64,000 bases of DNA, from positions 192,001 through 256,000 of IMG/VR virus record IMGVR_UViG_3300038679_000051, one strand, 5' to 3'. Of this stretch, positions 45,732-64,000 are shown piece after piece. Within the stretch, counting starts at the first letter, position 1. Every line of letters starts with the position of its first letter. The notes beneath the pieces are model-generated. The model was not told where the DNA came from. It ran no database searches and saw only the letters and a list, made by a program, of their open reading frames with translations. The stretch is from a virus. Lineage: Duplodnaviria; Caudoviricetes. The position numbers and the translations under genes were made by a program.

Positions 45732-45851
45732 ATGAAATTATCATTGCTTTTCGAAACCCCGGATGTTGAACCATTTGGGTCGTTCACATGTCTTGACAAC
45801 GAATATCCATATTGGGGTAATCCACGCGGTAGAGATAACAATGGAATATGA
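45732..45851 (+). CDS. 39-aa ORF with MKLSLLFE N-terminus, not in ORF track
   Basis: [39 protein letters not shown]; shares N-terminal motif with other genes. Confidence 0.5.
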
Positions 45852-46962
45852 CAAGGGTAAATTTAATCGATATGCCAAATTGGGAATGCATGCGACGGAT
45901 CCTCTTGTGGATGCTGCCGTCAAAAAGATAAATAGAATTATGAACCTCACAAAAACGGCTTTCCTCACTGGTATTACTGGTCAAGATGGCGCATATTTAG
46001 CAGAATTTCTATTAGCGAAGGGATATTGTGTCCATGGTCTGATCCGACGTACCAGTAGTTTCTCTACGGGACGTATTGACCATCTTTATCATGATCCACG
46101 ATTGAAATTACATCATGGTGATTTATCTGATGGCAATAGTTTGGCGAGTTTATTGCATGAAATTCGACCACAGGAAATTTATAATTTAGGTGCACAGTCA
46201 CATGTAGCTGTTTCTTTTCAAAATCCAGTTTATTCGGCCGATGTGGACGGGTTGGGCGTTTTGCGTCTGCTGGAGGCGATTCGTGCACTGAATTTTCCTG
46301 TCCGTTTTTATCAAGCTTCATCTAGTGAAATGTTTGGTTCTACGCCACCTCCACAGAATGAAAATACGCCGTTTCATCCGCGCAGCCCATATGCCTGTGC
46401 TAAAGTGTACGGTTATTGGCAGACCATCAATTATCGGGAGGCATATTCTCTATTTGCTTGTAACGGAATTTTGTTTAATCATGAGTCGCCGCGTCGCGGT
46501 GAAACGTTCGTCACGCGCAAAATCACTCGTGCAGCTTCTCGCATTAAATTAGGATTACAAGAGAAATTGTTTTTGGGTAATTTGGATGCTAGGCGTGATT
46601 GGGGCTTTGCTGGAGATTATGTTGAGGCAATGTGGTTGATGTTACAGCAAGATAAACCCGACGACTATGTCGTTGCTACGGGCGAAACATATTCGGTTCG
46701 GGAATTTCTTGATGAGGTCTTCGGGCAATTGCAATTGGATTGGCGTCGTTTCGTTGAACAAGATGCCCGATATATGCGTCCTAGCGAAGTAGACAATTTA
46801 TGTGGTGATGCGACCAAAGCACGCACGCAGTTGGAGTGGACGCCAAAAATAACTTTTAAAGCTTTAGCAAAAATGATGTTGGATGCTGACATGCAGTTGG
46901 CACAGAAAGAAAAAATCATAAGTTTGAGTGGAGAAACAAATGAAGTTAAATATGTTACATAG
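45841..46962 (+). CDS. gmd: GDP-mannose 4,6-dehydratase (core begins at ATG 45940; possible 33-aa N-terminal extension)
   Basis: [70 protein letters not shown]. Confidence 0.96.
45895..45925 (+). repeat. 31-bp direct repeat, copy 2
   Basis: See 44983-45013. Confidence 0.9.
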
Positions 46963-47675: not shown

Positions 47676-49010
47676 TCAATATTTATAAATAAATCGCAAT
47701 TTTTCTTTTCCCATAACTTTCTCATATTTTATTGAATTTGCGTATTCTTGTTCTTTCATGCCCATTTTAACAGCATGGTCCCACAATGTCTTCTTATGTA
47801 TTACATACCCATCTTTACCGACATACCAATAATCGGGTTTGACAGTTCCGTCTAATTGCCAATTTGAAGCTTTATAAATCGTTCCTGTATGATTGTGTGA
47901 TGTATCTGCGAATGTGATTAAATATTTTAAAGCTGGAAGTTCTGCTTCTATCATTTTCATGCATCTTGATATGAACCATGTAGCAAAATTCTTTTTTTGA
48001 TAGGCTGGATGAATGCAGAATCTTGATAATTCGCGTATTTCTGCCGTTTTTATACCAAGTTTATCAGCGGATTCTTTTCTAGTGATTGTAGAAAAAGCGC
48101 ATACGGCAATTAGATCATTACCTAATTTAACTCCATATCTAATGGAATTCTTACCAATCCTACCAAAGTAGTGATATTTTGCGACAAATTTCCTAGCTTC
48201 ATCATCAGTAATGTGAATGATTTCGACGTCGTCAAATGAGAAATCAATTGGGTTCCAGCCTGATCCAGTCCAATATTTAATCAAATCGACGATCCTGTCC
48301 TTGCAATGAAATTCATGCTCCCAAATGTGTTTTAATTTTAGATGTGGGAAATAACGTTCAAGATATGTGGCTTTTGCTTGATCATTTATCTTCGCCTTAT
48401 CCTTTTTGTGCCAATACTCGCCTTGGCATTCTATGATGAGGTTGTGATCTGGTAAGATGCAATCATAAGTCCAGAACCCAATGATTTTTTCAATTTCATA
48501 TTTAATCTTCAAATCATCTAAAATTGAATATAAAATCAATTGTATTGATGATGGCTTTCCTAATTGGTCATTTGCTAAATATGCCATCTTTTCTTTTACA
48601 GTATCATATTTCCCGATCATCTTTTTCACATATGATTGATCTTGCCATAGTTCTTTCATTCGTCGTTGTATTTTGTTCGATCTCAATAATGATGCTTCTC
48701 TAAAAGATCTCCCTTTAATGTTATATTGTTTAAAAGACTTGTTAATCGTTGCGATGGATACTCCGGCTTTTTTGGCTAATTCAGGTTTTGACATCCTTTT
48801 GTCATAATAATTAATTTTAAACCATTCTTCGGTTAAGAAATCAGGTAATCTTGGTTTGATTGGAATGCCAAATTTTTTTAATCTTCTATAAAGAAATTGA
48901 TCGTTGACGTTAAACTTTTTGACTATTTCTGAATATGGTGTCGTAGCATATAACTTTTCAAGACCTTCTTTCGTGTCAAATTCTGGTCCCATTATTTTGA
49001 AAAATTTCAT
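47676..49010 (-). CDS. HTH repeats + DUF559/Vsr-like endonuclease + Mom-like GNAT DNA-modification domain
   Basis: YDCILPDHNLIIECQGEYWH; KYHYFG, RELSRFCI, LITFADTSHNHTGTIYKASNW. Confidence 0.8.
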   Translation of the reverse strand: MKFFKIMGPEFDTKEGLEKLYATTPYSEIVKKFNVNDQFLYRRLKKFGIPIKPRLPDFLTEEWFKINYYDKRMSKPELAKKAGVSIATINKSFKQYNIKGRSFREASLLRSNKIQRRMKELWQDQSYVKKMIGKYDTVKEKMAYLANDQLGKPSSIQLILYSILDDLKIKYEIEKIIGFWTYDCILPDHNLIIECQGEYWHKKDKAKINDQAKATYLERYFPHLKLKHIWEHEFHCKDRIVDLIKYWTGSGWNPIDFSFDDVEIIHITDDEARKFVAKYHYFGRIGKNSIRYGVKLGNDLIAVCAFSTITRKESADKLGIKTAEIRELSRFCIHPAYQKKNFATWFISRCMKMIEAELPALKYLITFADTSHNHTGTIYKASNWQLDGTVKPDYWYVGKDGYVIHKKTLWDHAVKMGMKEQEYANSIKYEKVMGKEKLRFIYKY

Positions 49011-49087
49011 GTGATCTCCTATTTGATGCCTAAATAAACTAAATACTTCATTTACTTCACTGACATTATATTTTAGTCAAATTTTTT

Positions 49088-49510
49088 ATGGAGGTGGTAA
49101 CAATGGAAGACACTCAAATAGAAATAGCATTAAAAATTGAAATCAGAGAGGGTGGGACCATATTAATCCCGGGATGTGAGCCAATTTCGGAGTTAACTAG
49201 TCCATTGTTTGCACAACGATTAGATTGTAGTGCCAGTGAGATATCGGCAAAACAGGCGATGAAATTGATTCCGGGATCTTACATTTACGTCAATCCATTC
49301 TCACCCAGTAAGAGATTTCTGGTTCTACCAAGTGGCCCACCACCATATGGTAATGATTGTCCGAGAAGAAGATGTGACGATTGGTATTCATATCTGCGTG
49401 AGACGGTTACGCCGACGCCTGATGAGACGCCGCTTCAATGTAATTCGGCGGCATTCGATTTTTCATGGTGTAAAGACATAGACAAAGAAGCAGCGGCAAT
49501 GGCAAAATAA
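49088..49510 (+). CDS. Hypothetical protein
   Basis: 140-aa ORF, GGAGG RBS. Confidence 0.55.
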   Translation: MEVVTMEDTQIEIALKIEIREGGTILIPGCEPISELTSPLFAQRLDCSASEISAKQAMKLIPGSYIYVNPFSPSKRFLVLPSGPPPYGNDCPRRRCDDWYSYLRETVTPTPDETPLQCNSAAFDFSWCKDIDKEAAAMAK

Positions 49511-49547
49511 TTATGAGCATTATGGTCACAAAAATAATTGGGAGACG

Positions 49548-50144
49548 ATGATGCAACCAAATCCGCAACACACGCCATTAAATAAGACGGCAATAGACCG
49601 TCAAACTGATTTTCGCAATGACACCGAAAAGGAGAGCAGTCCTCTATCGGTATACCAAGACAATGCTGATGGCGGCATTGCTGAAAACATTGCAGAAGAA
49701 TTCATAAACATTTCCGGTGCGTGGGTCATTATCAAGGTACGTACAAACCACGATGGATATGATGATGTTTGGGATGAGGACGTAGATCCGACATATAAGA
49801 ATGGTTTCAAAACTAAGGCATACTTCAAGACGGAACCATTACAGACGGAATTGACTAAGTGGGGTGTCGACGTTCCAAATAAAACGACCATTACGTTTCC
49901 GCGTGCGAAGATTTATCACCAATTCGGGAATAGAATGTTGCGGGCTGGCGATCTCATAGACGTGCCATATGGTGCGATCATCAACGTGCCGAAACAATTG
50001 GTAGATACGTCGGCTTTACATTTGGTTCAATATCGAGTATTGAACACCTACGAGACTGGGAATTTCAAATATCGATGGTTGTATTTGAATTGTGATGCTG
50101 AGGTAATAACTGGCGACATGACTGTACGCAAAGATACTTTCTAA
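49548..50144 (+). CDS. Head closure/neck protein (T4 gp14-like)
   Basis: EEFINISG...VWDED...ELTKWGVD...AGDLIDVP...YRV. Confidence 0.7.
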   Translation: MMQPNPQHTPLNKTAIDRQTDFRNDTEKESSPLSVYQDNADGGIAENIAEEFINISGAWVIIKVRTNHDGYDDVWDEDVDPTYKNGFKTKAYFKTEPLQTELTKWGVDVPNKTTITFPRAKIYHQFGNRMLRAGDLIDVPYGAIINVPKQLVDTSALHLVQYRVLNTYETGNFKYRWLYLNCDAEVITGDMTVRKDTF

Positions 50145-50344
50145 GTATTTAAACAGATGGAGAGTGATATGCCATATCAGCGTTGAAGAAGAAATGGCGT
50201 GATCCAATTTATAGACATAAAATTTCGTCTATTAAACATGATTCAGACCGTACGTAAGGACAATTTCTAAACATGTAATTAATATCATCATTTAAATATA
50301 AAATATGATTCATTTTAATGGCTCATTTTTAAAGGAGAAATACG

Positions 50345-50908
50345 ATGAGAATAAATTCGATGGTTGGTCGATTTGCTGGCACAATTACGTTCACTGATGG
50401 GACCATTGAAGTCTTTCACACACAAGGTGAATGGGACGTCAACGGCATAAGTCGGGCCTGGAGTATTGATGAAAACGAATCTAAAGAAGCATTGAAACAA
50501 GTAAATTGGCATTTAAATCCGAATTATCCACCAGATGGACCACAATATCCATATAAAACTGGGGTTGATTTATTTAACATTATGAATGGTTTGTTTCCAT
50601 TTGCTGGATGTGTTTGGGCCAATACACATCCAGCTGCGCAAAAAATTATTTCTGACATGACTTCTCGTTTGGATTTGACATTGGCGCGTGACGACAATAA
50701 AACTTATCAAGTTGCTGCCGTCATATATAAATTTCCGAACGTCATTTTGGAAGGGTTGCCTTTTGCGACGCATCCACCACAATCATTGGTGTCGGTGTCA
50801 TCGGTTGCTGATAGAAGTTCCATGACGGATGCCACCAATCTTGCTGCTGTTAAAGTATTGATTCGTACTGCTTTTAACGTCATCATGGAGACCGTTACGG
50901 TTTCATAA
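50345..50908 (+). CDS. Hypothetical protein
   Basis: 187-aa ORF, AAAGGAG RBS. Confidence 0.65.
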   Translation: MRINSMVGRFAGTITFTDGTIEVFHTQGEWDVNGISRAWSIDENESKEALKQVNWHLNPNYPPDGPQYPYKTGVDLFNIMNGLFPFAGCVWANTHPAAQKIISDMTSRLDLTLARDDNKTYQVAAVIYKFPNVILEGLPFATHPPQSLVSVSSVADRSSMTDATNLAAVKVLIRTAFNVIMETVTVS

Positions 50909-52462
50909 TTTTGCTAAATATCCTTCTGGGTGACCAGACAAATCTTTGATTCCACCATTTTCAACGATTGATTTGAATTGTTCACGGAACACGAAGTATA
51001 GACGAATGACGCCGGATGGTTGTTCTTTCCAATCTTCAATTTTTAACACATCATCTGCTAATTCCTGTGTGATTTTCGCGCCAGCACCAACCGATACTGT
51101 TTGCATCACTGAGACGTCGTTGCCGACTGCCTCGCCGTCATATGACATCGTATATACATCACAGACACTGATGTTGCGAGCACCAATAGGCCCTGTGCAT
51201 CCTGTCGTATATACATCACAGACACTGATGTTGCGAGCACCAATAGGCCCTGTGCATCCTGTTGGACCCGATGGACCCGATGGACCAAAAAACGAACGTT
51301 CGATGTTGTTCTGTCTACGTGTCTTTGGTTCGAAGAAAGCAAAACCAAATGCTGGAACAGTGTTGTGTTTACTAATGATGAGAGAGGCTATGTCCTTCTG
51401 TTCGTCTTTAGTGAAGAAGAATTGTCGCACCACACCGTTTGGCAATCTAAAACCATCAAGCCATAAATTGTCTGGATGAGCAACATATGATTTTGATGGC
51501 CATTTGTGACCACATTCCTCACACAATCTACCCTCTTTGAATTTCGTCTTATGGACTGGACATTCATTTTTATATTGTTCCAATTCTAGTTTTTCAAATT
51601 TTTGGCCGGTAATTGGATTCATGCCCTTGATACTGGGGAGAACGGCGACGTTTAGGGCATCATTCTCAGTCCAATCAAACCATAAACCAAAATCAGGATC
51701 GACTGGACAGACATAACAACCTTCACCGCGCATCCATTCTTGTGGACAACCTGGCAGAGCGTCAACTGGAAACACTGGGACTGGTGCTCCTGGTGGTAAA
51801 GCATTGCTTTCATTGTCGGTCAACAATGGTGCTCGCATCAACCTAGCCGTGAAATTGCCGACTTTCATCTTTCTGACATAACCGGATTTGGCTATAGGAA
51901 CGGCGTAATTAATGCCGTTTCTTTCACGAATGCGCGTGATCTGGTCGTTGATCATTTGTACGCTGTTGGCATAATTGTTGGTATCCACGCCGTAGATCAT
52001 ACCAAACCCCAATTTAGAGGCCATTTGCATTGCTCGTTGTCTAGTCGTAGTATTTGCAGCAATCATATATAGAAATTCCCAACCGATGACTTCCTTCTCC
52101 CCCATCAATTTTGCCAATTCATCGGACGTGATTTTGCTCTCGTTTTCCTCACCGTCAGTGAATGCGGCAATAATTATGTGGTCGGCTTTGCTCTTCTCAA
52201 CATGTCTAACGGCGTACGCTACGGCATCCAGCAACGCCGTGCCGCCGTTAGCTTGAAACGTTTGTAAACGTTCCATTTTCGACAAATTCACCCCATCAAT
52301 GACGATTTCTGATTTGTTGCTAAACGTTATGACGTTTACGGTGCAGTCATCGTTGATCTTACGTTGTTCTTCAATCAATTTGTTGATCGAAGCGATTGCC
52401 GTTTCCATTAGACATTGCATCGATCCACTACGATCAATTATCAACGTTAATTCTGTGGACAT
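50903..52462 (-). CDS. vWA-domain protein fused to a C-terminal Zn-containing domain with a short collagen-like tract
   Basis: IIDRSGSM MIDAS, GGTALLDAV, FTDGEENES; LWFDW..KGMNPITG..WLDGF..VVRQF; GPSGPSGPTG. Confidence 0.85.
   Translation of the reverse strand: MSTELTLIIDRSGSMQCLMETAIASINKLIEEQRKINDDCTVNVITFSNKSEIVIDGVNLSKMERLQTFQANGGTALLDAVAYAVRHVEKSKADHIIIAAFTDGEENESKITSDELAKLMGEKEVIGWEFLYMIAANTTTRQRAMQMASKLGFGMIYGVDTNNYANSVQMINDQITRIRERNGINYAVPIAKSGYVRKMKVGNFTARLMRAPLLTDNESNALPPGAPVPVFPVDALPGCPQEWMRGEGCYVCPVDPDFGLWFDWTENDALNVAVLPSIKGMNPITGQKFEKLELEQYKNECPVHKTKFKEGRLCEECGHKWPSKSYVAHPDNLWLDGFRLPNGVVRQFFFTKDEQKDIASLIISKHNTVPAFGFAFFEPKTRRQNNIERSFFGPSGPSGPTGCTGPIGARNISVCDVYTTGCTGPIGARNISVCDVYTMSYDGEAVGNDVSVMQTVSVGAGAKITQELADDVLKIEDWKEQPSGVIRLYFVFREQFKSIVENGGIKDLSGHPEGYLAKL
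51148..51262. repeat. Exact 57-bp tandem duplication (19 aa) inside vWA gene
   Basis: tcgtatatacatcacagacactgatgttgcgagcaccaataggccctgtgcatcctg x2. Confidence 0.95.
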
Positions 52463-52470
52463 GTCGTTTC

Positions 52471-52538
52471 TCCTTTATCCTTTATCCCTTTGTCCTTTAT
52501 CCCTTTGTCCCTTTGTCCCTTTGTCCTTCCTCCCTTTA
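52471..52538 (-). repeat. Short tandem repeat of Shine-Dalgarno-like units (AAAGG(G)AC/T) in vWA 5' UTR
   Basis: Minus strand: ggacaaagggacaaagggacaaagggataaaggacaaagggataaaggataaaggagaaacgacATG. Confidence 0.85.
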
Positions 52539-52967
52539 TAACAAATCCTCACCCTCACCGTCTGAACCAATCGAGCCGCAAGAACCGGTCGCCCCCGTCG
52601 GGCCGGTTGGACCTTGTGCGCCAGTATAACACATTGTATTGGTTTGGAAGTTGCTGCGCCAATGCCATTCATCGAAGAAAATCTTCCTAGAATCATCATA
52701 GGAAAGTTCGACTGTGGTATCGGTAGTGAGAATGAATAAATCTATAAGTTTATGATATTCACCAACATACAAAATTGGGACAGGAAGATTAATGTTGTGC
52801 GAAACCTTCTTGAACTTCTTTGCCAACGTTAATTTTCGTTTCAATACTTCGACCAACAGTTTGTTGTATTTCTTCAACGCTATCTTATAATTCTTGATGT
52901 GGGCTTCCCTGTGTTTCTTCAACGCCTTAAGAATTGCTTGTGTTTCGAACTTTAGATTCATTTCCAT
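52536..52967 (-). CDS. Hypothetical protein with C-terminal collagen-like tail
   Basis: AAAAGGAG RBS; TGAQGPTGPTGATGSCG. Confidence 0.7.
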   Translation of the reverse strand: MEMNLKFETQAILKALKKHREAHIKNYKIALKKYNKLLVEVLKRKLTLAKKFKKVSHNINLPVPILYVGEYHKLIDLFILTTDTTVELSYDDSRKIFFDEWHWRSNFQTNTMCYTGAQGPTGPTGATGSCGSIGSDGEGEDLL

Positions 52968-53151
52968 GTGGTTTCTCCTTTTTATCATTGTATCTAACTG
53001 CGTAACCGGCCTCGCCTTCTATGCGATGCCCGGTTCTTGCCGCATGTCGAGATGCGTTTCTCGGTCCATGTTCATGATCTTGGGTACTCCACTTGCAGTC
53101 CTGGCATTCTGCAAGGAAGCGTACCAGAAATTGTCTATGTCTGCGTTTCAT
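52927..53151 (-). CDS. Small Zn-finger-like protein
   Basis: CQDC...H..RTGH; ATG overlaps upstream stop. Confidence 0.5.
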   Translation of the reverse strand: MKRRHRQFLVRFLAECQDCKWSTQDHEHGPRNASRHAARTGHRIEGEAGYAVRYNDKKEKPHGNESKVRNTSNS

Positions 53152-54002
53152 GCGTTCCAATCACGATGCTGGAAGAATGGATCAGCTTTACTGTTCGGCG
53201 TAGAAGATAATTTCCGACGCAATTTCGGTAATCTATCATCTTCTTTAAGCGTTTTAAAGGCTAGATCATTCGATGGTATTCTGATTCGTTCAATACCTTT
53301 CTTGATTAGATCATGAATCCCGACTGCATCTAATTTTGTACCGTTGTTGATGGCTACTCGGACGTAGATGCGATCTTCTTCCGGAAGAATGCTCCAGTCG
53401 TTTAAACACTTTTCACACCAACCATTGACTAAGGCGATGTCTGAATGGATTGGGCATTCTTCAATCCAAATCATTGGGAATTCACCGACGCGACACAATC
53501 GATAGACATGACCTTCGACGTTCATAATGCTTGGTGTGTTACGACGTCGTGCGACGTGCAACATTCTTATGCTGGCATTTACGTTTACCATATCGCCATC
53601 AAATGCAATGAATGGTCTGTCGTTTGATCGTCGTCGTAATTCTGATGCAATTTCCGACGAACAATCAGGGCCATATGCCTCAATTAATTCGTTGTCCTTC
53701 CATTGTGAGACCGGGCGCAGAGTAGACATCACATCGATGATTAGGTTTGATTCTTCTGATTTCTCCACGCCTTTCAGAATTGCCCATCCAGCACAAAATC
53801 TGGCAATTTTTACACCGTGTTTATCGACAAAGATCGCTCTGGCATCACCCTCTTTGGTGGTTCCTGCTTTGAGCATCCGATCATCATCAATGCCGAGTTC
53901 ATTAAGATATGACAAAACATCGGAAACCGACAGTTTCATTGTGTCGGCTGCTTTTGTGATCTCTTGTTCTTTGAAGGGGGTAGACGGGACATGATTACTC
54001 AT
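53148..54002 (-). CDS. Hypothetical protein with CPxH..CExC Zn motif
   Basis: 284 aa; GAGGAG RBS. Confidence 0.7.
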   Translation of the reverse strand: MSNHVPSTPFKEQEITKAADTMKLSVSDVLSYLNELGIDDDRMLKAGTTKEGDARAIFVDKHGVKIARFCAGWAILKGVEKSEESNLIIDVMSTLRPVSQWKDNELIEAYGPDCSSEIASELRRRSNDRPFIAFDGDMVNVNASIRMLHVARRRNTPSIMNVEGHVYRLCRVGEFPMIWIEECPIHSDIALVNGWCEKCLNDWSILPEEDRIYVRVAINNGTKLDAVGIHDLIKKGIERIRIPSNDLAFKTLKEDDRLPKLRRKLSSTPNSKADPFFQHRDWNA

Positions 54003-54137
54003 CTTATTTCTCCTCTCGCTCGCAAACGCCTCATGACTCTGGACTAATCAGCACATCGCCTTTCGTCCGCTCCTATAAATACATACGCATGTCAGGATTA
54101 ATGAAAATTCTGTTGAAAAATAAATTAGGGAGGACAT

Positions 54138-54479
54138 ATGTTTACGCTTAAATTTAATGTCTTAAACATGAAAGAGGTACAACAAAAGATGTTGAAAGCC
54201 GTTGAAGGACACATCTCGAACATGTCACCAATAATTGCGCAAATGGCGCGAGAAGAGATGGAGAAATTATCGAAATTTCCAATGTCAGTGAAGATGAATG
54301 GGAATGCAGCACAAATAAGTCCGATTACCAAGAATGAAAAGGAGTCGGAGGAAGCTGTCGATGAGGCTACCAAGGGGGCCAGTCCGCAATTTATGACGCA
54401 ATTTAAATTTAAAAATAAATCCTGGGTGACGCGAAGTCTCAAGATGAAAATGAAGGATGTCAAACATGGGAATTTATAA
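54138..54479 (+). CDS. Hypothetical protein
   Basis: 113 aa; GGGAGG RBS. Confidence 0.6.
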   Translation: MFTLKFNVLNMKEVQQKMLKAVEGHISNMSPIIAQMAREEMEKLSKFPMSVKMNGNAAQISPITKNEKESEEAVDEATKGASPQFMTQFKFKNKSWVTRSLKMKMKDVKHGNL

Positions 54480-55341
54480 TTTTGAATCAGTCAAACACGT
54501 AACCACACAAATGCCGAAGGCACAGTATGGTTACGTTGAACCAGATCCAATTATCCCGACTGCACCACCACAATTTCCTAGTATGGCTAAGAAAGTGAAC
54601 GTAGTTGGTGACCCCATAAATTCAGCACATTATGAAGATGTCATGCCGGTATATGAACCGGCATATCATTATCTCGACGAGGGAATGAAACGATATTTCA
54701 GTGAAATTAGGATACCGACTAGAGATTCCTATCGTAAAATGTCAGTGAAGATTGCTGGTGGAGATAAGTCAATATTGATATGGAAGAAAGAGTTCGAGAA
54801 TGAACACAGCCGCGTTTCACTGCCCGTAATGTCGATCAATCGAACCGGCGAACAATTCAATCCAATGAAATTCTCACCGCCATATATGCCGATCTCCAGA
54901 AAATTCGCGACGACGGACAAGACTAGATTGCAATTATGCTATCGTCCTACGCCGTCTTTGGTATCATATCAGATGACCATTTGGGCTGAACACAAACGTG
55001 ACGCCGAATATGCGCTATACGACATAAGGACTAGGTTTAATCCATTGGCAGAATTCGTGGCAGATGACAAACAGGCAATTGGTAACGTCATTTTGAAATA
55101 TGATGGCATGGTGGATTCTTCAGACAAGGAAGCTGCTGCCGCTGTAAGAGCCAACGTCCGATATGACATTAATCTGACAGCTGAGGCTTGGTTGTCGTTA
55201 CCCATAAGATTAATGCCATCGGTGCTCGGTCGAGTGACACAATTGGCTGAATTCAGTGGTGAGATCTTCGGCACATTATTTGGTAATAGTTTTCATGATT
55301 ATAAAGAAGCATTATTAGATGATGCTACGGCCACTCTATAA
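54466..55341 (+). CDS. Tail terminator/sheath stabilizer (T4 gp15-like)
   Basis: SLPVMSINR...PTPSLVSYQMTIW..RDAEYALYDIRTRFNP...RYDINL.AEAW. Confidence 0.7.
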   Translation: MGIYNFESVKHVTTQMPKAQYGYVEPDPIIPTAPPQFPSMAKKVNVVGDPINSAHYEDVMPVYEPAYHYLDEGMKRYFSEIRIPTRDSYRKMSVKIAGGDKSILIWKKEFENEHSRVSLPVMSINRTGEQFNPMKFSPPYMPISRKFATTDKTRLQLCYRPTPSLVSYQMTIWAEHKRDAEYALYDIRTRFNPLAEFVADDKQAIGNVILKYDGMVDSSDKEAAAAVRANVRYDINLTAEAWLSLPIRLMPSVLGRVTQLAEFSGEIFGTLFGNSFHDYKEALLDDATATL

Positions 55342-55391
55342 TTGTCCATGTATTTAATTTTGGGTATTTCTAAAAAGAAAAGGAGGATGTA

Positions 55392-55682
55392 ATGGCTACA
55401 CGTCCGATGACACAGAGAGAGATCAAGAAGCAACTGGATGCACAGAAGAAGCTGGATTTCGTAGTAGTATACAATTGTTCAAACCAATTAATAAATTTGC
55501 AAATCGAAAGACAATCTAAGCCGGGTCACAAGAAGCTTGATTTCTTTCATGCGCAACAGAACGTGCAATTATATCCAAAGAAGACCGTGAAACTGCCAAA
55601 ATCAATAACGATGACCGAACAACTCAAAAACCTTCAAGCTAAGGGATTTCTGAAGATATTGGGCCAATCATCAGAAGAATGA
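55392..55682 (+). CDS. Hypothetical basic protein
   Basis: 96 aa; AAGGAGG RBS. Confidence 0.7.
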   Translation: MATRPMTQREIKKQLDAQKKLDFVVVYNCSNQLINLQIERQSKPGHKKLDFFHAQQNVQLYPKKTVKLPKSITMTEQLKNLQAKGFLKILGQSSEE

Positions 55683-55849
55683 ATATGAATATGGAAATGA
55701 AATGCATGATTTGCGGCATGCGAATCAGTGCTGCAAAAGAACAAGAATTGCTCAAAAGAGCACAAAAACAAAAATGGGTCAAATCAGAGGACGGATGGCG
55801 TTGCCCAGCATGTTATCGTATGTCTGAACGACATAAGAAACGAACATGA
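55679..55849 (+). CDS. Small Zn-ribbon protein (56 aa), not in ORF track
   Basis: KCMICG...W...GWRCPAC; ATGA overlap with upstream gene. Confidence 0.6.
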   Translation: MNMNMEMKCMICGMRISAAKEQELLKRAQKQKWVKSEDGWRCPACYRMSERHKKRT

Positions 55850-55913
55850 CCACTGCGCTGCACTGCAATGCGCGGCCAAGCTAACCTTTGTAGTTTTGCA
55901 GGTAGGAGATACA

Positions 55914-56183
55914 ATGGCTGATCCGCTTGAACCGACGTGTGAGGCGTGTGGCGTCCCCTATGTTGAGCACCTTGGGTTGATAGGCACCTGTAACAGGTTA
56001 CAGAGAGCGCTGAAGTTGCTGGAGGAGGTCTGCAGTTGGCATAGGGACCAAGACAGCCAGGACTACAACGAATGCGATAAGGAACCGTGTCAGTTTTGCG
56101 TGTGGGTGTCCGAGTTACGGGCGGGAAACGATAACGTAAAACAGGGGTTAACGTGCCTAAGGCGAAAGCGTCATACAAACTAA
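55914..56183 (+). CDS. Cys-rich small protein in a GC-richer patch
   Basis: AGGAG RBS; CEACG...CQFC. Confidence 0.6.
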   Translation: MADPLEPTCEACGVPYVEHLGLIGTCNRLQRALKLLEEVCSWHRDQDSQDYNECDKEPCQFCVWVSELRAGNDNVKQGLTCLRRKRHTN

Positions 56184-56294
56184 GCGGCTTTATGTGCAGC
56201 GCCGATTTTCATTTTGGGGTCAGGTCCAGGAAGCGCGGTCAGGTGTACGGCAGCCTAGAAAGAAGCAATATTGATTGATCCACAGGTGGATTGA

Positions 56295-56639
56295 ACCACC
56301 AGGTGGTTTCAAAGGAAATGTCAACTTTCCTCATGGTTTCTATCACGTGTGACTAAAATGTTATGGAATGATAAACCATTAATCAAGAAAATCATTACGT
56401 TTGCTGATACGACATATGGTCATGAAGGCACAATTTATAAGGCAGCAAATTGGACGTTGATCGGACAAGTGAAGCCCGATTATTGGTATGTTGATGAACA
56501 TGGTAATCGATTCCACAAGAAAACAATATGGGATCATGCCTCAAAAATGAGTCAAAACGAAGAAGAATATGCCAATTTATATGGATTAAATAAAATTGTT
56601 GGTGGTATGAAACATAGATATGTTATTGATCGACCGTAG
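56295..56639 (+). pseudogene. N-terminally truncated Mom-like GNAT gene
   Basis: LSSWFLSRVTKML..IITFADTTYGHEGTIYKAANW..KPDYWYV..FHKKTIWDHA closely parallels the C-terminus of 47676-49010; in-frame TGA at 56292; no intact N-terminal half. Confidence 0.7.
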
Positions 56640-56736
56640 TTTATATACTTAATGAAATTACACCAGATGCAAATCTAAAGCAAAATTACATTGAAGCAGT
56701 TGTTGAGCTGAAACCACAGAAAAGGAGAACACAAAA

Positions 56737-59610
56737 ATGCCAGTTTACCTCTCTCCGGGCGTATTTCCACGTGAAATCGATCTGAGCGTAATCCCGACTG
56801 CAGTTGGTCCGTTACGCCCAGCGTTTATTGGGACCGCAAAGAAAGGTCCAATGAATGCTCCAACATATGTGACTACGTCACAACAATTTATTGATACGTT
56901 CGGGACGCCATTCCCAGAATCGTTCATGGGGTATGCCGTCTTGGCCTACATGGAAGAGGGTAATCAGGCATACATCCTTCGTGCTGGCGTGGAATGTGAA
57001 GAAGGCCAGGTAGAAGAATTGGCCGACATTTGCATAGATACGAGCGGTGCCAATGGACATGGTTGGGGTCGAATACCAGTATTTACTGGCATTGATTATG
57101 GTAAAATTCGTCTGCGCAGCGTTTCAACTACTGAACCATTGGCATTCCACAGCGCGGCCATAACTGACATTTATTTTAGTGATATGGATGTAACGGTTCC
57201 TACTGCAGCGACTTTGTCATTTGTCGGCGGTGGTTTGTCGGATGCATATGCTGGCGCAATCGATGATTCTTATTTGCTTTTGATCACATCCGCACCAACG
57301 ACTGGTGCGATGATAGCCGGTGCAACATATGAAGTCATACGCAACAGCGATGGCGTGATCATTGCATCTGGCATGTTGTCTGAATCGGTCGTTGGGCAAT
57401 CAGATCCAATTACGTTAGTTGATGGCATGATTTGCAGCATAATCGTTACGTCTGGTGAATTGGACGTACAAGACAGCTTTTCTTTTAATGCCCGACCCGA
57501 CAATAGAAGTTTTGGATTTGCGGTTGATCTCTCACAATCACCGACGGTCAACATCCACAGTTTTAATGATGGCGAATCATTCACTGATGCCGATACGTTC
57601 GTCACTCGTTTCAATGCCATAATCGGCGGTTCTGAGGATTATAAAGCCGTTCATGAAGATGAAATCATTTACATTCGTTCTGACGTTGCGGGTGTCAACA
57701 TTCAAATGCAACATTCTGAAGCTTGGGCTTTGGAAGTTGGTCGCAGTTTGTATGCTTATGACATCCCACGATCATTCTTGATTTCTACTGATGCTGGTCC
57801 ATTCAACATCACTGCCAACAACAACCGAATCAAAATGACGGTAGTGGATGGCGAGCCGGTTCAAGCCACTACGGATTTAGAATTCTCAATCCCAATTGGT
57901 TTGAATTTGACGACCGCACAAGTAGCAGCTGGAATTCAGCCAGGCGGCATCAAGAATGGTTCAAGATTTTTCAATGCATACCCATTGGAAATATCAACTG
58001 GCGTCTATTACGTGGTGATTGAGACGGCAGTAGATCATTGTTATGGGGTATTGAAATTGCAAGCCAATCTGAGCAACGTTCGGACGTTGCGATTTGCTGA
58101 AGAATTGGAAATTCAATATCCATACTATCGGAATTTCCGGACTTATGGTGATAGTCGAGCCATGTTGCCGACGACTGGCGTCATTACGCCATCCGTGCCG
58201 CTCTCATGTGAAATCGACCCATTGTCCGATGATTGTGCACTTGATAGTGCATATTTTGCAGGCATTGTCGGCTGGTTTGTGGCGAAATCCCCCGGCACCT
58301 GGATCGACAGCTATACTCTTGATTTGACGCAGCGACTGACCGGAACCACCAGTGGTGGTTCCGTACAACAAGCTGGACATTTTGACATAACATTGCGTGA
58401 TTTGTCTGGCGTGACCGTTGATCGCGTTGAAGACGTTACATTTGATCCGCGTGATTCACGTTTCGTCGGAAACGTCATCAATGCAGGGTCTACGCTCGGC
58501 GGATTCAATGGCAATGCCTTCATCCAATGGGAATCTCGTCCGTCATTTTTGGCAAACGATCCGCTCGATCCAACGACGTTCGTGGTGCGCGTACCAAGCC
58601 CAGTCAATCGTGGTGCGTTCATTGATGCGGCCAATGGCATACCGACCGATCCAGCTTATTCTAGTGAATTGGATCGCGTGTTCATCGGCAATCCAGCCAA
58701 GGAAAGCGGCATTTATGCCTTCCAGAACCCAGAAGTATTCGACATCAATCTGTTGTTGGTGCCTGGTGCGTCATCTGGTGCGGTCATTGGTCAGATGTTG
58801 CAATTCTGTGAAGCACGTGGTGATGTGCTTTCGATCATTGATCCGCCTTTCGGATTGCGCCCACAACAGGTCGTCGATTGGCACAACGGCATGTTGTTCG
58901 CTGATCTACAGAACAGCATTAATAGTTCGTATGGTGCATTGTATTGGTCCTGGTTGCGGATCTTTGATCAATACAACGGCGGGGACATTTACATACCACC
59001 TAGCGGCCACGTCAGTTCAGTCTTCGCTCGTACGGCTCGTGTAGCGGAACAATGGTTTGCACCCGCTGGTCTTAATCGCGGTCATTTGCTCACGCCGACG
59101 GCAGTTGAATTCAATCCGACGATGGGTGAACGCGATTTGCTCTACGGTTCAGGAAACGCCGTCAACCCAATCGTCAATTTCGTGCAAGACGGCATCACGA
59201 TTTGGGGTCAACGGACGCTTCAACGCCGTCAGAGTGCGTTGGATCGCGTAAACGTCCGAATGTTGTTGATTTACATCAAGAAGAATTTGTCGAGAGCGTT
59301 ACGACAGTTCATCTTTGAGCCGAACGATAGAATTCTCTGGGCACAAGTCCGATCGGTCGTCAATCCATTCTTGGCCGACATTCAGGCACGGCGTGGTTTG
59401 CAAGCGTTCAAAGTGGTGTGCGACGAGACCAACAATACGCCTGAACGGATCGATCGCAATGAGTTGTGGATATCAGTCTTCCTCAAACCCACAAGAGCGG
59501 TGGAATTTATCGTGCTCAACCTTGTCATTCTCAGAACCGAGGCGAGCTTTTCGAGTGAAGAAGTCCTCCAAGCAGGCGGTGTAGTAACGCAACAACCAGC
59601 GTCTGTATAA
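56737..59610 (+). CDS. Tail sheath protein (T4 gp18-like)
   Basis: YLSPGVFPREID, PPSGHV, WFAPAGLNRG, VNPIV, WGQRTL, RVNVRML, FEPND, KPTRAVEFIVL. Confidence 0.97.
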   Translation: MPVYLSPGVFPREIDLSVIPTAVGPLRPAFIGTAKKGPMNAPTYVTTSQQFIDTFGTPFPESFMGYAVLAYMEEGNQAYILRAGVECEEGQVEELADICIDTSGANGHGWGRIPVFTGIDYGKIRLRSVSTTEPLAFHSAAITDIYFSDMDVTVPTAATLSFVGGGLSDAYAGAIDDSYLLLITSAPTTGAMIAGATYEVIRNSDGVIIASGMLSESVVGQSDPITLVDGMICSIIVTSGELDVQDSFSFNARPDNRSFGFAVDLSQSPTVNIHSFNDGESFTDADTFVTRFNAIIGGSEDYKAVHEDEIIYIRSDVAGVNIQMQHSEAWALEVGRSLYAYDIPRSFLISTDAGPFNITANNNRIKMTVVDGEPVQATTDLEFSIPIGLNLTTAQVAAGIQPGGIKNGSRFFNAYPLEISTGVYYVVIETAVDHCYGVLKLQANLSNVRTLRFAEELEIQYPYYRNFRTYGDSRAMLPTTGVITPSVPLSCEIDPLSDDCALDSAYFAGIVGWFVAKSPGTWIDSYTLDLTQRLTGTTSGGSVQQAGHFDITLRDLSGVTVDRVEDVTFDPRDSRFVGNVINAGSTLGGFNGNAFIQWESRPSFLANDPLDPTTFVVRVPSPVNRGAFIDAANGIPTDPAYSSELDRVFIGNPAKESGIYAFQNPEVFDINLLLVPGASSGAVIGQMLQFCEARGDVLSIIDPPFGLRPQQVVDWHNGMLFADLQNSINSSYGALYWSWLRIFDQYNGGDIYIPPSGHVSSVFARTARVAEQWFAPAGLNRGHLLTPTAVEFNPTMGERDLLYGSGNAVNPIVNFVQDGITIWGQRTLQRRQSALDRVNVRMLLIYIKKNLSRALRQFIFEPNDRILWAQVRSVVNPFLADIQARRGLQAFKVVCDETNNTPERIDRNELWISVFLKPTRAVEFIVLNLVILRTEASFSSEEVLQAGGVVTQQPASV

Positions 59611-59621
59611 CATATTTTTAG

Positions 59622-59664
59622 GATAAAGAAAAGGGGAGGCGATAAACCTCCCTTTTTCTTTATC
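59622..59664 (+). terminator. Intrinsic (probably bidirectional) terminator after sheath
   Basis: gataaagaaaaggggagg-cgataaa-cctccctttttctttatc inverted repeat with T-tract. Confidence 0.85.
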
Positions 59665-59700
59665 GGAATTATTGCAAAGCATACATAACAGGAGATTGGT

Positions 59701-60141
59701 ATGAAATTGAAGATGCTTTACGAAAATCTAAAGAAAGAGTATGATAAAGATAAACACGAAAATTTAGAGGCCATTGCAGAAATAGCAGGTGCATATATCA
59801 TTAAAAAAGACCGAGACGAATTTTATTCAAATAATCCGAGAGCATGGATGACTGATGATCCAAATTTAAAAGACGAGCGTGGTAATATCATAGCAAAATG
59901 GTATTTGGTGGATTTGGGTGAATCTGGTCCAAGACCAGAACCAGAGGCATGGTGGGCACACGAGAAATATCGATTGGGCGATCCACACAGGAAAAATGAC
60001 TTCTACATCAAATCATTGCAAGTTAATCCCCCTGATCCAATATATGACCGGGGACTTGGCGGATTTCAATTTTATCCTAAAGATTTCTGGAAACAAGAAG
60101 GAATAAAATTTGGATTTGGGAACGATACAATCAGTTTCTAA
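59701..60141 (+). CDS. Hypothetical protein with MKLKMLYE N-terminus
   Basis: 146 aa; AGGAG RBS. Confidence 0.7.
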   Translation: MKLKMLYENLKKEYDKDKHENLEAIAEIAGAYIIKKDRDEFYSNNPRAWMTDDPNLKDERGNIIAKWYLVDLGESGPRPEPEAWWAHEKYRLGDPHRKNDFYIKSLQVNPPDPIYDRGLGGFQFYPKDFWKQEGIKFGFGNDTISF

Positions 60142-60215
60142 GAGACGGCACATCCAACCACACAACCACATAAACAACAAAACATTTACGAGCTTGTGTG
60201 AGGTATTTAAATGAT

Positions 60216-60291
60216 GCGTGTGAAGCATAGTGATCGATGCGCCTGACTACCAGTTGGGAGAGGGGAGTGTAATTCTCGCCCACACGCTCCA
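60216..60291 (+). tRNA. Non-canonical tRNA-Gly-like element (anticodon ACC, encoded CCA)
   Basis: Acceptor GCGTGTG/CACACGC + T + CCA; D stem GCAT/ATGC; anticodon stem CCTGA/TTGGG with loop CTACCAG; T stem GG.GAG/CTC(G)CC with loop TGTAATT; 76 nt. Confidence 0.8.
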
Positions 60292-60495
60292 AAACGTCAT
60301 TTTGTGCAGCCTACTTGGTACGGAAGACCAAGTAAAAGCGCGGATAACAATTCCTAAGGGCGAAACAGTGAACAGTGCAGGCCCGCGACGAAGGAAAGTC
60401 GGCAACTAAACCCCTTCACCCGGTGGGCAGGAACATTTACCGTAAGTCAAACCATTGCGGACTTGTTGAAACCGGGTAAATTTTTAAATAGGGGT
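60292..60495 (+). ncRNA. Candidate structured non-coding RNA downstream of tRNA-like element
   Basis: GC-rich ORF-free gap with hairpins tacttggt/accaagta, cgac/gtcg and nested acccggt/accgggt enclosing aagtc/gactt. Confidence 0.4.
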
Positions 60496-63647: not shown

Positions 63648-64000
63648 ATGATCGATTGGAATAAAACTAAACAAAAATTTGGATTGACTGAATCTATCGT
63701 AACCAGTAAATCACTGGTCGTAGTAGTATGTGATGAATGTAAATCAGAACGAGTCATAAAATATGTTGGACATAAAACCATCATCAAAGCCCATGGTAAT
63801 TCATTGTGTTCGTCGTGTCGTAGTAAAAGCATAAGAGTGATTCACGCTGAGGCATTTACTAAATCAGATGTGAAACGAGCGGAGACGTTGTCTAGAACAT
63901 ATAAAAAGAAATGGCAGGATAAGAAATATAGGAAGACACAACATGAAATAAGGAATAATGATTATCGTTCTAAGATCAGTAATGCATCTAAACAATGTTG
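63648..64000 (+). CDS. Homing-endonuclease-like protein, N-terminal part (3' truncated by window), not in ORF track
   Basis: MIDWNKT..VVVVCDEC..LCSSC..KKKWQDKKY..SKISNASK; same basic repeats as 19025 and 47676 genes. Confidence 0.6.
   Translation, partial: MIDWNKTKQKFGLTESIVTSKSLVVVVCDECKSERVIKYVGHKTIIKAHGNSLCSSCRSKSIRVIHAEAFTKSDVKRAETLSRTYKKKWQDKKYRKTQHEIRNNDYRSKISNASKQC

What the first reader, a model, noticed from the sequence alone, without database searches (positions are those of the whole stretch)
47676..60291. Candidate self-supplied DNA hypermodification system: Mom-like GNAT plus non-translational tRNA-Gly
Seen: within about 12.6 kb lie an intact Mom-like GNAT domain (about 47676-48245), a second truncated Mom-like gene (56295-56639) and the tRNA-Gly mimic. 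Established: phage Mu Mom is a GNAT-fold enzyme making N6-carbamoylmethyl-adenine, a glycinamide-like adduct that blocks restriction, and several GNAT-fold enzymes (Fem/MurM, L/F-transferase) use aminoacyl-tRNA donors. As I recall, recent biochemistry reports Gly-tRNA(Gly) as the Mom donor (needs checking). Inference: the phage may encode a private glycyl donor that EF-Tu cannot sequester, feeding modification of its own DNA.
Basis: inference. Interest (0 to 1): 0.85.

Follow-up and report, generated by a model that had tools for sequence, protein, structure and literature searches.

The report
Mom DNA-modifier genes with private tRNA-Gly
This jumbo-phage fragment carries several nuclease-Mom DNA-modification genes plus one odd glycine-type tRNA-like RNA, and across public phage and bacterial sequences that same RNA family sits right next to Mom genes, which suggests that these enzymes travel with their own glycine carrier.

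Summary
All three observed features are real. The Mom domain at 47685-48224 is the C-terminal module of a 444-aa HTH + REase-fold nuclease + Mom protein. It is one of five Mom copies in the 151-kb record, a fusion type already described for jumbo phages. 56295-56639 is a decayed C-terminal remnant. 60216-60291 is a cloverleaf that ARAGORN and Rfam miss.

Being within 12.6 kb means nothing by itself, and two Mom-rich relatives (one complete) lack the RNA. The proposed link still survives stronger tests. A search using only the RNA's 5' signature found 45 distinct viral cloverleaves. Of the 38 with enough flank, 36 have a Mom gene directly upstream on the same strand. Bacterial genomes gave 9 of about 13. 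Two cultured phages show the same arrangement.

Across 47 sequences, 97.8% of proposed pairs hold, with heavy compensatory change. The family keeps the glycyl-tRNA synthetase identity set (G1-C72, C2-G71, G3-C70, U73, C35, C36) but has degraded decoding features.

Best reading (about 0.6): a non-translational glycyl carrier for Mom enzymes, here acting in trans. I found no prior description. Charging, EF-Tu avoidance and DNA modification are untested. Earlier scan notes on this exist only for this same genome.

The parts
47676..49010 (-). 444-aa multidomain protein (copy C): N-terminal HTH DNA-binding region, then a Vsr/REase-fold nuclease (about residues 154-250), then a C-terminal Mom domain
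   Evidence: Pfam and PHROG matches. Weak match to the I-Bth0305I nuclease 3r3p. Nuclease residues D183, E194, G197, Y199, H201, D210, K213 and E231 are invariant across the four paralogs. The architecture is described for jumbo phages in PMC7824862.
47685..48224 (-). Mom (GNAT) domain of copy C, which looks catalytically intact
   Evidence: PF25680 E=1.5e-28. It keeps the equivalents of Mu H58, Y59, R111, S124 (as T), D149, G156, Y159 and R216. R151 is absent, but it is also absent from strong stand-alone Moms.
56295..56639 (+). Decayed C-terminal remnant of a nuclease-Mom fusion gene (copy E), just upstream of the tail sheath gene
   Evidence: PF25680 profile positions 85-182 only. No upstream half in any frame. 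The closest relative, L073, has a 281-aa Mom fusion in the same slot before the sheath gene.
60216..60291 (+). Free-standing 76-nt tRNA-Gly-like RNA. It has a 7-bp acceptor stem (G1-C72, C2-G71, G3-C70), U73, an encoded CCA, anticodon loop CUACCAG, a D-loop without GG, a six-position T-stem with a G-G mismatch, and T-loop UGUAAUU
   Evidence: Cloverleaf is the MFE fold. Compensatory changes against L073. Family covariation. R2 score 85.5 bits. Only one copy in the 151-kb record.
63648..64000 (+). Start of a fourth intact nuclease-Mom fusion gene (copy D, 595 aa), which runs off the window's end
   Evidence: PF25680 hit at G000:63007-63501 inside a 605-aa open frame. ORF extracted and aligned.

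Best explanation
The window contains two separate things that work together.

(1) Members of a multi-copy, sporadically inserted family of HTH + REase-fold nuclease + Mom proteins. One is intact within the finding's range (copy C), one is a remnant (copy E), and a further intact one (copy D) starts just beyond it near the window's end. Their Mom domains most likely glycylate adenine N6 in double-stranded DNA, as Mu Mom does. That would protect the phage genome while the fused nuclease attacks unmodified DNA.

(2) One member of a previously undescribed family of tRNA-Gly-like RNAs that is genetically coupled to Mom-family genes.

Proposed mechanism: the RNA is transcribed and trimmed to a 76-nt cloverleaf ending in UCCA. 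The host glycyl-tRNA synthetase charges it, because the full bacterial glycine identity set is kept. It is a poor ligand for EF-Tu and the ribosome, because of the purine-purine mismatch in the T-stem, the altered elbow and the variable anticodon loop. U73 protects the glycyl ester from DTD deacylase. The Mom domains then use it as a glycyl donor without draining the translational Gly-tRNA pool. In this phage a single free-standing copy would serve all four intact Mom paralogs in trans.

Shown here: the domain identities, the RNA's structure and the selection acting on it, and the genomic linkage. Inferred: charging, EF-Tu avoidance, use by Mom, and modification of the phage DNA.
For: Biochemistry: Mu Mom uses Gly-tRNA-Gly. 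It accepts all three E. coli isoacceptors, rejects Gly-tRNA-Ala, and probably reads the acceptor end.

RNA structure: 47 sequences, 97.8% of cells paired against 32-47% for slid controls; 193 cells with changes on both sides against 57 +/- 6 in shuffles (0 of 500 shuffles reach it); acceptor pairs 4-7 use all four Watson-Crick types at 100% pairing, while pairs 1-3 stay G-C, C-G, G-C.

Linkage:
- RNA to gene: 40 of 45 distinct viral elements, and 36 of 38 with at least 700 nt of flank, have Mom directly upstream on the same strand. Pfam scores for those genes are E=1e-45 to 1e-56.
- Gene to RNA: 7 of 79 fusion-centred loci (5 distinct) have a Gly-type element within 8-42 nt of the gene's 3' end (6 loci on the same strand, L182 on the opposite strand), and no tRNA of any other type is adjacent.
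- Replication in bacterial genomes: 9 of about 13.
- Cultured phages: Psychrobacter phage vB_PmaS_Y8A has two unannotated tandem copies 8 nt after its Mom-like gene. Microbacterium phage Warren has a tRNA-Gly 32 nt after its Mom-like 'acetyltransferase'.

Identity kept, decoding lost: U73 in 46/47; C35-C36-A37 in 45/47; CCA encoded in 33/47; U33 kept in only 20/47; position 34 is U, A or C; seven sequences carry an extra anticodon-arm base (8-nt loops in L151 and L140); purine-purine T-stem mismatch in 47/47. The Psychrobacter copies have no D-arm at all.

Trans action: the window copy and the L073 copy lie at different genome positions away from Mom genes, yet differ only by pair-preserving stem changes and loop changes.

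Precedents: S. aureus non-proteogenic tRNA-Gly escapes EF-Tu through weak pairs in the first three T-stem positions. U73 shields Gly-tRNA-Gly from DTD, which matters most for species not bound by EF-Tu.

Not the family's ordinary tRNA-Gly: complete relatives carry canonical tRNA-Gly(GCC) and (UCC) inside tRNA arrays.
Against: - There are no expression, aminoacylation or DNA-modification data for any member.
- In this window the RNA is 3.6 kb from the Mom remnant, 3.3 kb from copy D and 11 kb from copy C, so local linkage is absent.
- Most Mom genes have no such RNA: Mu and Listeria LP-064, the complete relative G001 with 3 fusions and G009 with 6, and 72 of 79 fusion loci. Mu Mom works with ordinary host tRNA-Gly.
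- A few elements have no Mom within reach: L253 follows a DNA methylase, and L227, L293, L301 and L296 have none nearby.
- In 30 of 40 linked cases the Mom reading frame runs through the element. That could point to a cis role on the mRNA instead.
- Many of the elements come from related contigs, so the counts are not all independent events.
Confidence: 0.6

Rival explanations
1. The tRNA-like structure is a cis-acting element of mom transcripts. It could be an RNase P/Z processing site, a 3'-end stabiliser or a translational control device that limits production of a toxic enzyme, rather than a glycyl donor.
For: In 30 of 40 linked cases the Mom ORF reads through the whole element, and 36 of 41 ORFs enter it in the same frame. 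Cutting the RNA out would therefore truncate the mRNA. Mu mom is already known to be under tight post-transcriptional control by Com (annotation). In the L184 group a terminator hairpin follows the tRNA directly.
Against: A pure processing signal has no need for the GlyRS identity set, U73, C35-C36 or an encoded CCA, yet all are conserved. The window and L073 copies are free-standing and far from any Mom gene but are kept by pair-preserving substitutions. The Warren and L182 copies are on the opposite strand to Mom. The Psychrobacter copies lie after the stop codon and are duplicated.
Confidence: 0.14
2. It is an unusual but translational tRNA-Gly, or a nuclease-resistant replacement or decoy tRNA against host tRNA-targeting defences, and it sits near Mom genes for reasons unrelated to Mom chemistry.
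For: The window copy has a 7-nt loop with U33 and anticodon ACC. Jumbo relatives carry large tRNA sets. The Warren copy is a canonical tRNA-Gly(CCC). GNAT toxins that target Gly-tRNA-Gly exist, for example TacT, cited.
Against: U33 is lost in 27 of 47 sequences, two members (L151, L140) have 8-nt anticodon loops, position 34 is unconstrained, every member has a T-stem mismatch, and the Psychrobacter copies lack a D-arm. Relatives already have canonical tRNA-Gly(GCC) and (UCC). Nothing in this reading explains why the neighbouring gene is Mom in 36 of 38 cases, or why the adjacent tRNA is always glycine-type.
Confidence: 0.1
3. The adjacency reflects mobile-element behaviour: tRNA-Gly-like genes are the homing or insertion target of the nuclease-Mom genes, so the two are found together without any functional dependence.
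For: The fusions behave like free-standing homing endonuclease genes. They are multi-copy, occupy different slots in close relatives, and one is decayed. Cultured-phage homologs are annotated as homing endonucleases. tRNA genes are classic insertion sites (general knowledge).
Against: 36 of the 40 linked viral cases involve stand-alone Moms of about 200-320 aa with no detectable fused nuclease domain. The junction is conserved enough for the ORF to enter the RNA in one frame. The linked RNAs are atypical and lie outside tRNA arrays. Only glycine-type elements are ever adjacent.
Confidence: 0.05
4. There is no system in this phage: the element and the Mom genes are unrelated passengers, and the element here is a relic with no current function.
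For: The element is not adjacent to any Mom gene in the window. G001 and G009 carry Mom fusions without it. The 25 nt upstream weakly resemble the 3' end of a lost fusion gene (62-65% identity, null 99th percentile 60%).
Against: All nine stem differences between the window and L073 copies preserve pairing, and the other three differences lie in loops. The identity set and CCA are intact. The record holds four intact Mom paralogs with conserved catalytic residues.
Confidence: 0.06

Closest known systems
Phage Mu Mom (PF25680; PDB 8bv8), the tRNA-dependent adenine N6 glycyl-transferase
   Same: Same Pfam family. It shares H58, Y59, R111, S/T124, D149, G156, Y159 and R216, and the HTH-like insertion region aligns. 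The established co-substrate is Gly-tRNA-Gly.
   Different: Mu Mom is a stand-alone 231-aa protein that scavenges host tRNA-Gly, and no linked tRNA-like gene was found in the Mu region scanned. The window's domains are fused to HTH and nuclease modules, occur in five copies, and lack Mu's R151 and W181.
Jumbo-phage REase-fold endonuclease-Mom fusions (Iyer et al. 2021, PMC7824862)
   Same: The same architecture and phage type. They are predicted to act as a single-chain restriction/modification pair.
   Different: That work assumed an acyl-CoA donor and mentioned no RNA partner. Here a subset of such fusions (5 distinct loci of 79, plus L073 and this phage) carries a Gly-type tRNA-like gene.
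Non-proteogenic tRNA-Gly of Staphylococcus (donors for FmhB/FemA/FemB)
   Same: Extra glycine-accepting tRNAs that are charged by the normal GlyRS, bind EF-Tu poorly because of T-stem changes, and are reserved for a GNAT-fold aminoacyl-transferase. U73 is their protection from DTD.
   Different: Those are cellular and feed peptidoglycan synthesis. They have regular Watson-Crick but weak T-stem pairs and normal anticodon loops. The present family is phage-borne, is linked to a DNA-modifying enzyme, has a purine-purine mismatch in a six-position T-stem, has a variable anticodon loop, and often overlaps the 3' end of the enzyme's ORF.
Canonical phage-encoded tRNA-Gly (Rfam RF00005)
   Same: Cloverleaf shape, glycine identity elements, and sometimes an encoded CCA.
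   Different: The window element fails the Rfam gathering threshold and ARAGORN at default settings. It lacks the D-loop GG and the T-psi-C loop. Relatives' canonical tRNA-Gly genes sit in tRNA arrays, not beside Mom genes.

Membership tests
Mom family (PF25680) | Profile match above Pfam's gathering score | tested here: met
   100.3 bits for copy C and 59 bits for the remnant, against a cut-off of 27.1. Five hits in the record.
Mom family (PF25680) | Catalytic residues R111 and S124, essential in Mu Mom and conserved across metagenomic homologs | tested here: met
   R is conserved in copies A-D. Position 124 is S or T. The remnant (copy E) lacks R111.
Mom family (PF25680) | R151, essential in Mu Mom in vivo | tested here: not met
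   Replaced by S, T or N in the window's copies. It is also absent from strong stand-alone Moms (E=1e-45 to 1e-56) and the cultured-phage homologs, so it is specific to Mu and not family-defining.
Mom family (PF25680) | Transfers glycine from Gly-tRNA-Gly to adenine N6 of double-stranded DNA | not testable with these tools
   Needs biochemistry or nucleoside LC-MS.
REase-fold endonuclease-Mom fusion of jumbo phages | A nuclease domain N-terminal to the Mom domain in one polypeptide, found in a jumbo phage | tested here: met
   Invariant D/E/H/K motif block across four paralogs. Weak hits to 3r3p and PF18741. PHROG 559 and 3339 match at near full length. The record is about 41% of a genome whose complete relatives are 371-395 kb.
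Canonical tRNA (RF00005 / ARAGORN) | Passes the standard detectors; has the G18-G19 and T-psi-C elbow | tested here: not met
   No call at default thresholds. D-loop is AGUGAUCG and T-loop is UGUAAUU.
Bacterial tRNA-Gly identity | G1-C72, C2-G71, G3-C70, U73, C35, C36 | tested here: met
   All are present in the window copy and nearly invariant in the family. That U73 is specific to bacterial tRNA-Gly comes from PMC6097841. The rest of the identity set is from my own knowledge of the E. coli system. Actual charging was not tested.
Non-translational (non-proteogenic) aminoacyl-donor tRNA | Weakened EF-Tu determinants in the first three T-stem pairs, and loss of decoding constraints | tested here: inconclusive
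   Purine-purine mismatch at the third T-stem position in 47/47; U33 kept in only 20/47; two members with 8-nt anticodon loops. This is consistent by analogy, but EF-Tu binding was not measured.
Non-translational (non-proteogenic) aminoacyl-donor tRNA | Dedicated to a specific aminoacyl-transferase | tested here: inconclusive
   Genomic linkage to Mom is strong (36/38; 9 of about 13), but functional use has not been shown.

The most novel reading that the evidence does not exclude
Mom enzymes and this RNA form a portable two-part module in which the glycyl carrier is cut out of the 3' end of the mom mRNA itself. Each transcript would then become either a template for the enzyme or its co-substrate. 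That would give built-in dosage coupling and a donor pool kept apart from translation. In jumbo phages the RNA has become a free-standing, trans-acting cofactor gene that serves several nuclease-Mom paralogs.
Probability: 0.2. Interest if true: 0.93.

Novelty: new variant of a known kind. Interest (0 to 1): 0.88.

Why it matters
Mom was shown only in 2023-2026 to be the first enzyme that uses a charged tRNA to modify DNA, and the published view is that it scavenges host tRNA-Gly.

A conserved, atypical glycine-type tRNA-like RNA wired to Mom genes across many phages and prophages would mean that viruses evolved a private aminoacyl carrier for DNA hypermodification. That would parallel the staphylococcal cell-wall tRNAs, but in the setting of phage-host conflict.

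It would also define a new RNA family that standard tRNA finders and Rfam miss, explain orphan "tRNA-Gly" genes in small phages, and give a compact enzyme-plus-RNA pair for biochemistry and for engineered DNA modification.

It can be tested directly in cultured phages (Psychrobacter phage vB_PmaS_Y8A and Microbacterium phage Warren) using the published Mom assay.

Tried and rejected
- Standard tRNA and RNA-family detection found nothing: ARAGORN at default, Rfam at gathering and at E<=10.
- Megablast and blastn against phage records found nothing.
- Searches with the two small flanking proteins found no relatives.
- An exact pattern over the acceptor, D-arm and anticodon loop found nothing in the viral collection. 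An exact scan of the T-arm core found only one other contig in the viral and metagenome collections.
- The narrow two-sequence model R1 found nothing in 9 relatives' whole records. I first read this as evidence against the link. The wider tests overturned that reading.
- Read laying: RNA-library contigs covered neighbouring ORFs and 60371-60471 but not the element. These were contigs from libraries that usually lose small RNAs, so this says nothing about expression.
- A search for a decayed fusion gene upstream of the window element by tblastn gave only noise. A short DNA resemblance to fusion 3' ends is marginal.
- No N-terminal half of copy E was found in any frame.
- Script slips that I corrected: a sheath C-terminal query was out of frame (those rows ignored); the first upstream-ORF finder stopped 15 nt into the element (redone); the stop positions printed are one less than the true values.
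- The genome-collection scan returned roughly the expected ~17 chance matches. I separated them by acceptor pairing and loop content.
- I considered and rejected an attP-type tRNA fragment: the whole cloverleaf is present, it is non-canonical, and its stems covary.

Full report
**Observation.**
- ORF 47676-49010 (minus strand, 444 aa) matches Pfam Mom (PF25680) over residues 263-442 at E=1.5e-28 and PHROG 1384 at E=5.7e-32. It aligns to the Mu Mom crystal structure 8bv8.
- 56295-56639 matches only the C-terminal half of the profile, positions 85-182. No upstream half exists in any frame.
- 60216-60291 folds into a complete cloverleaf as its minimum-free-energy structure. ARAGORN at default and Rfam do not report it.

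**What the Mom genes are.** The window is part of a 151-kb IMG/VR record that CheckV rates about 41% complete. Complete relatives are 371-395 kb with terminal repeats, so this is a jumbo phage.
- The record has five Mom hits. Four are long proteins with the same plan: a variable N-terminal DNA-binding region, a Vsr/REase-type nuclease with an invariant D/E/H/K motif block, and a C-terminal Mom domain.
- The paralogs are only 29-41% identical to copy C, yet both catalytic domains keep their key residues.
- Comparison with the closest relative, L073, shows the genes occupy different slots between conserved structural genes. The window's remnant lies exactly where L073 has a 281-aa fusion gene.
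- Cultured Campylobacter phages carry the same nuclease-Mom core, annotated as a homing endonuclease.
- This architecture was already described for jumbo phages by Iyer et al. 2021 and interpreted as a restriction-plus-protection pair, with an acyl-CoA donor assumed.
- Across Mu Mom, stand-alone Moms and these fusions, H58, Y59, E108, L109, R111, D149, G156, Y159 and R216 are invariant or nearly so, and position 124 is S or T. R151 is specific to Mu.

**The recalled biochemistry is right.** Silva et al. (bioRxiv 2023; Nat Commun 2026, PMC13219725) showed that Mu Mom moves glycine from Gly-tRNA-Gly to adenine N6 in double-stranded DNA. It accepts all three E. coli tRNA-Gly isoacceptors, rejects Gly-tRNA-Ala, and probably reads the acceptor end. 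The paper describes the donor as a scavenged host resource and mentions no linked tRNA gene.

**Local proximity is not evidence.** With five Mom copies in 151 kb, any site lies within a few kb of one. In the window the RNA sits in a variable region after the sheath gene. It is 3.6 kb from the remnant, 3.3 kb from copy D and 11 kb from copy C. Relatives gave a mixed picture:

| Record | Mom fusions | Element |
|---|---|---|
| G001 (complete, 371 kb) | 3 | none |
| G009 (140 kb) | 6 | none |
| G002 (complete, 395 kb) | 0 | none |

. Complete relatives also carry about 35-41 ordinary tRNAs, including canonical tRNA-Gly(GCC) and (UCC). So the element is an extra, highly derived glycine-type RNA and not the family's normal tRNA-Gly.

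**The RNA is real.** A strict Gly-type acceptor scan hit only this site in the window, and one site in L073.
- The two copies differ at 12 positions. Nine are in stems and all nine preserve pairing. The other three are in loops.
- The two copies lie at different genome positions.

**Forward test.** I collected 79 loci centred on nuclease-Mom fusions, out of 256 relatives in IMG/VR, and scanned 1.27 Mb.
- Seven loci (five distinct) carry a Gly-type tRNA or tRNA-like gene 8-42 nt from the fusion gene's 3' end (one, L182, on the opposite strand).
- The only other tRNAs in all that sequence (Gln, Pro, Asn, and a CUA-anticodon tRNA that ARAGORN labels Pyl) are not adjacent to the fusion gene.

**Reverse test.** I scanned IMG/VR with a pattern covering only the first three acceptor bases and the D-arm, which ignores neighbouring genes.
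- 60 hits; 55 are full cloverleaves, giving 45 distinct sequences.
- 40 of the 45 have a Mom gene directly upstream on the same strand. Among the 38 with at least 700 nt of upstream flank, 36 do.
- The upstream genes are strong, complete, mostly stand-alone Moms (Pfam E=1e-45 to 1e-56).
- One exception follows a DNA methylase.

**Replication.** The same pattern in 596 Gb of bacterial genomes gave about the expected number of chance hits plus about 13 real elements. Nine of those are Mom-linked. Several lie in cultured-strain or chromosome-scale assemblies. The unlinked ones sit among unrelated genes.

**Cultured phages.**
- Psychrobacter phage vB_PmaS_Y8A has two unannotated tandem copies starting 8 nt after its Mom-like gene.
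- Microbacterium phage Warren has an annotated tRNA-Gly 32 nt after its Mom-like "acetyltransferase".
- In both phages a ParB-like gene precedes the Mom gene.
- Mu and Listeria phage LP-064 have none.

**Family anatomy** (47 sequences).
- 97.8% of cells pair, against 32-47% for slid controls.
- 193 cells carry changes on both sides of a pair, against 57 in shuffles.
- Acceptor pairs 4-7 use every Watson-Crick type, while pairs 1-3 never vary apart from one G-U.
- U73 is present in 46/47, C35-C36-A37 in 45/47, and an encoded CCA in 33/47.
- U33 survives in only 20/47. Position 34 is U, A or C. Seven sequences carry an extra base in the anticodon arm (read directly as 8-nt loops in L151 and L140).
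- Every member has a purine-purine mismatch at the third position of a six-position T-stem, and the T-loop usually reads UGCAAnU.
- The Psychrobacter copies have no D-arm but keep the acceptor/T-arm helix.

In short, what GlyRS and an acceptor-end-reading enzyme need is kept, and what the ribosome and EF-Tu need is relaxed. The staphylococcal precedent shows that weak pairs in the first three T-stem positions are enough to divert tRNA-Gly from EF-Tu. [quoted passage not shown]

**An unexpected feature.** In 30 of 40 linked viral cases the Mom reading frame continues through the whole element, and 36 of 41 ORFs enter it in the same frame. The Pfam domain is complete before the element, so the RNA encodes only a C-terminal tail. 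In the nuclease fusions the ORF stops just before or just inside the element. This overlap is the main support for a cis-regulatory rival and for the more novel reading in which the carrier is cut out of the mom mRNA.

**Verdict.**
- In this phage the RNA most likely acts in trans for several nuclease-Mom paralogs.
- The nuclease-Mom fusion and the Mom chemistry are known. I found no description of the linked RNA family in Rfam 15 or in the searchable literature. That literature covers open-access papers and bioRxiv only.
- Charging, EF-Tu avoidance, use by Mom and actual DNA modification remain untested.

Noticed in passing
window 60292-60495: A structured intergenic stretch of about 200 nt follows the tRNA-like RNA. 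A wetland metatranscriptome contig matches 60371-60471 at about 97% identity but is joined to unrelated upstream sequence. L073 has no such stretch after its copy of the element.
   Followed up: partly
L204-L262 (viral loci), e.g. L262:3184-3945: Stand-alone Mom ORFs read through the whole tRNA-like element in one conserved frame, so the RNA also encodes a C-terminal tail of the type S-I-D/E-S-D-A...E-G-G-A-x-P-T. Whether that tail is functional is unknown.
   Followed up: partly
L264:3156-3296 (Psychrobacter phage vB_PmaS_Y8A, record 7786-7926): Two tandem tRNA-Gly-like elements without D-arms, unannotated in the GenBank record, lie immediately after the Mom-like gene and before the terminase genes.
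   Followed up: partly
G001 and G002 (complete relatives); loci L088-L099: These 371-395 kb relatives carry about 34-41 tRNAs. ARAGORN labels some as SeC(UCA) and Pyl(CUA), which would be suppressor-type anticodons, and it reports two with 4-base anticodons. This could indicate stop-codon reassignment or suppression late in infection.
   Followed up: no
L253:375-1202 and L253:1263-1335: One family member follows an N6/N4 DNA methyltransferase gene instead of a Mom gene.
   Followed up: partly
L293 and L301 (Acidobacteriota chromosomes): Free-standing copies with loop UACCCCC lie next to GDP-mannose 4,6-dehydratase-type genes, with no Mom within 8 kb. The window also has a GDP-mannose 4,6-dehydratase gene (45763-46962) just beside copy C. 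This is probably coincidence.
   Followed up: no
L073:6942-7150 (minus strand): A 68-aa ORF ending at the first base of L073's element has a C-terminal half that looks like a small antitoxin or DNA-binding protein. Not checked against any library.
   Followed up: no
window 50903-52462 (minus strand) and 52536-52988 (minus strand): A 519-aa protein with an N-terminal von Willebrand A domain, and a small protein with a collagen-like repeat, lie between the Mom fusion and the tail genes.
   Followed up: no
window 60191-60215: The 25 nt upstream of the element (…AGGTATTTAAATGAT) resemble the last codons of element-linked fusion genes (…AGGTATGTATTTGAT…) at 62-65% identity, just above the 99th percentile of a random control. 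This may be the scar of a lost neighbouring fusion gene.
   Followed up: partly
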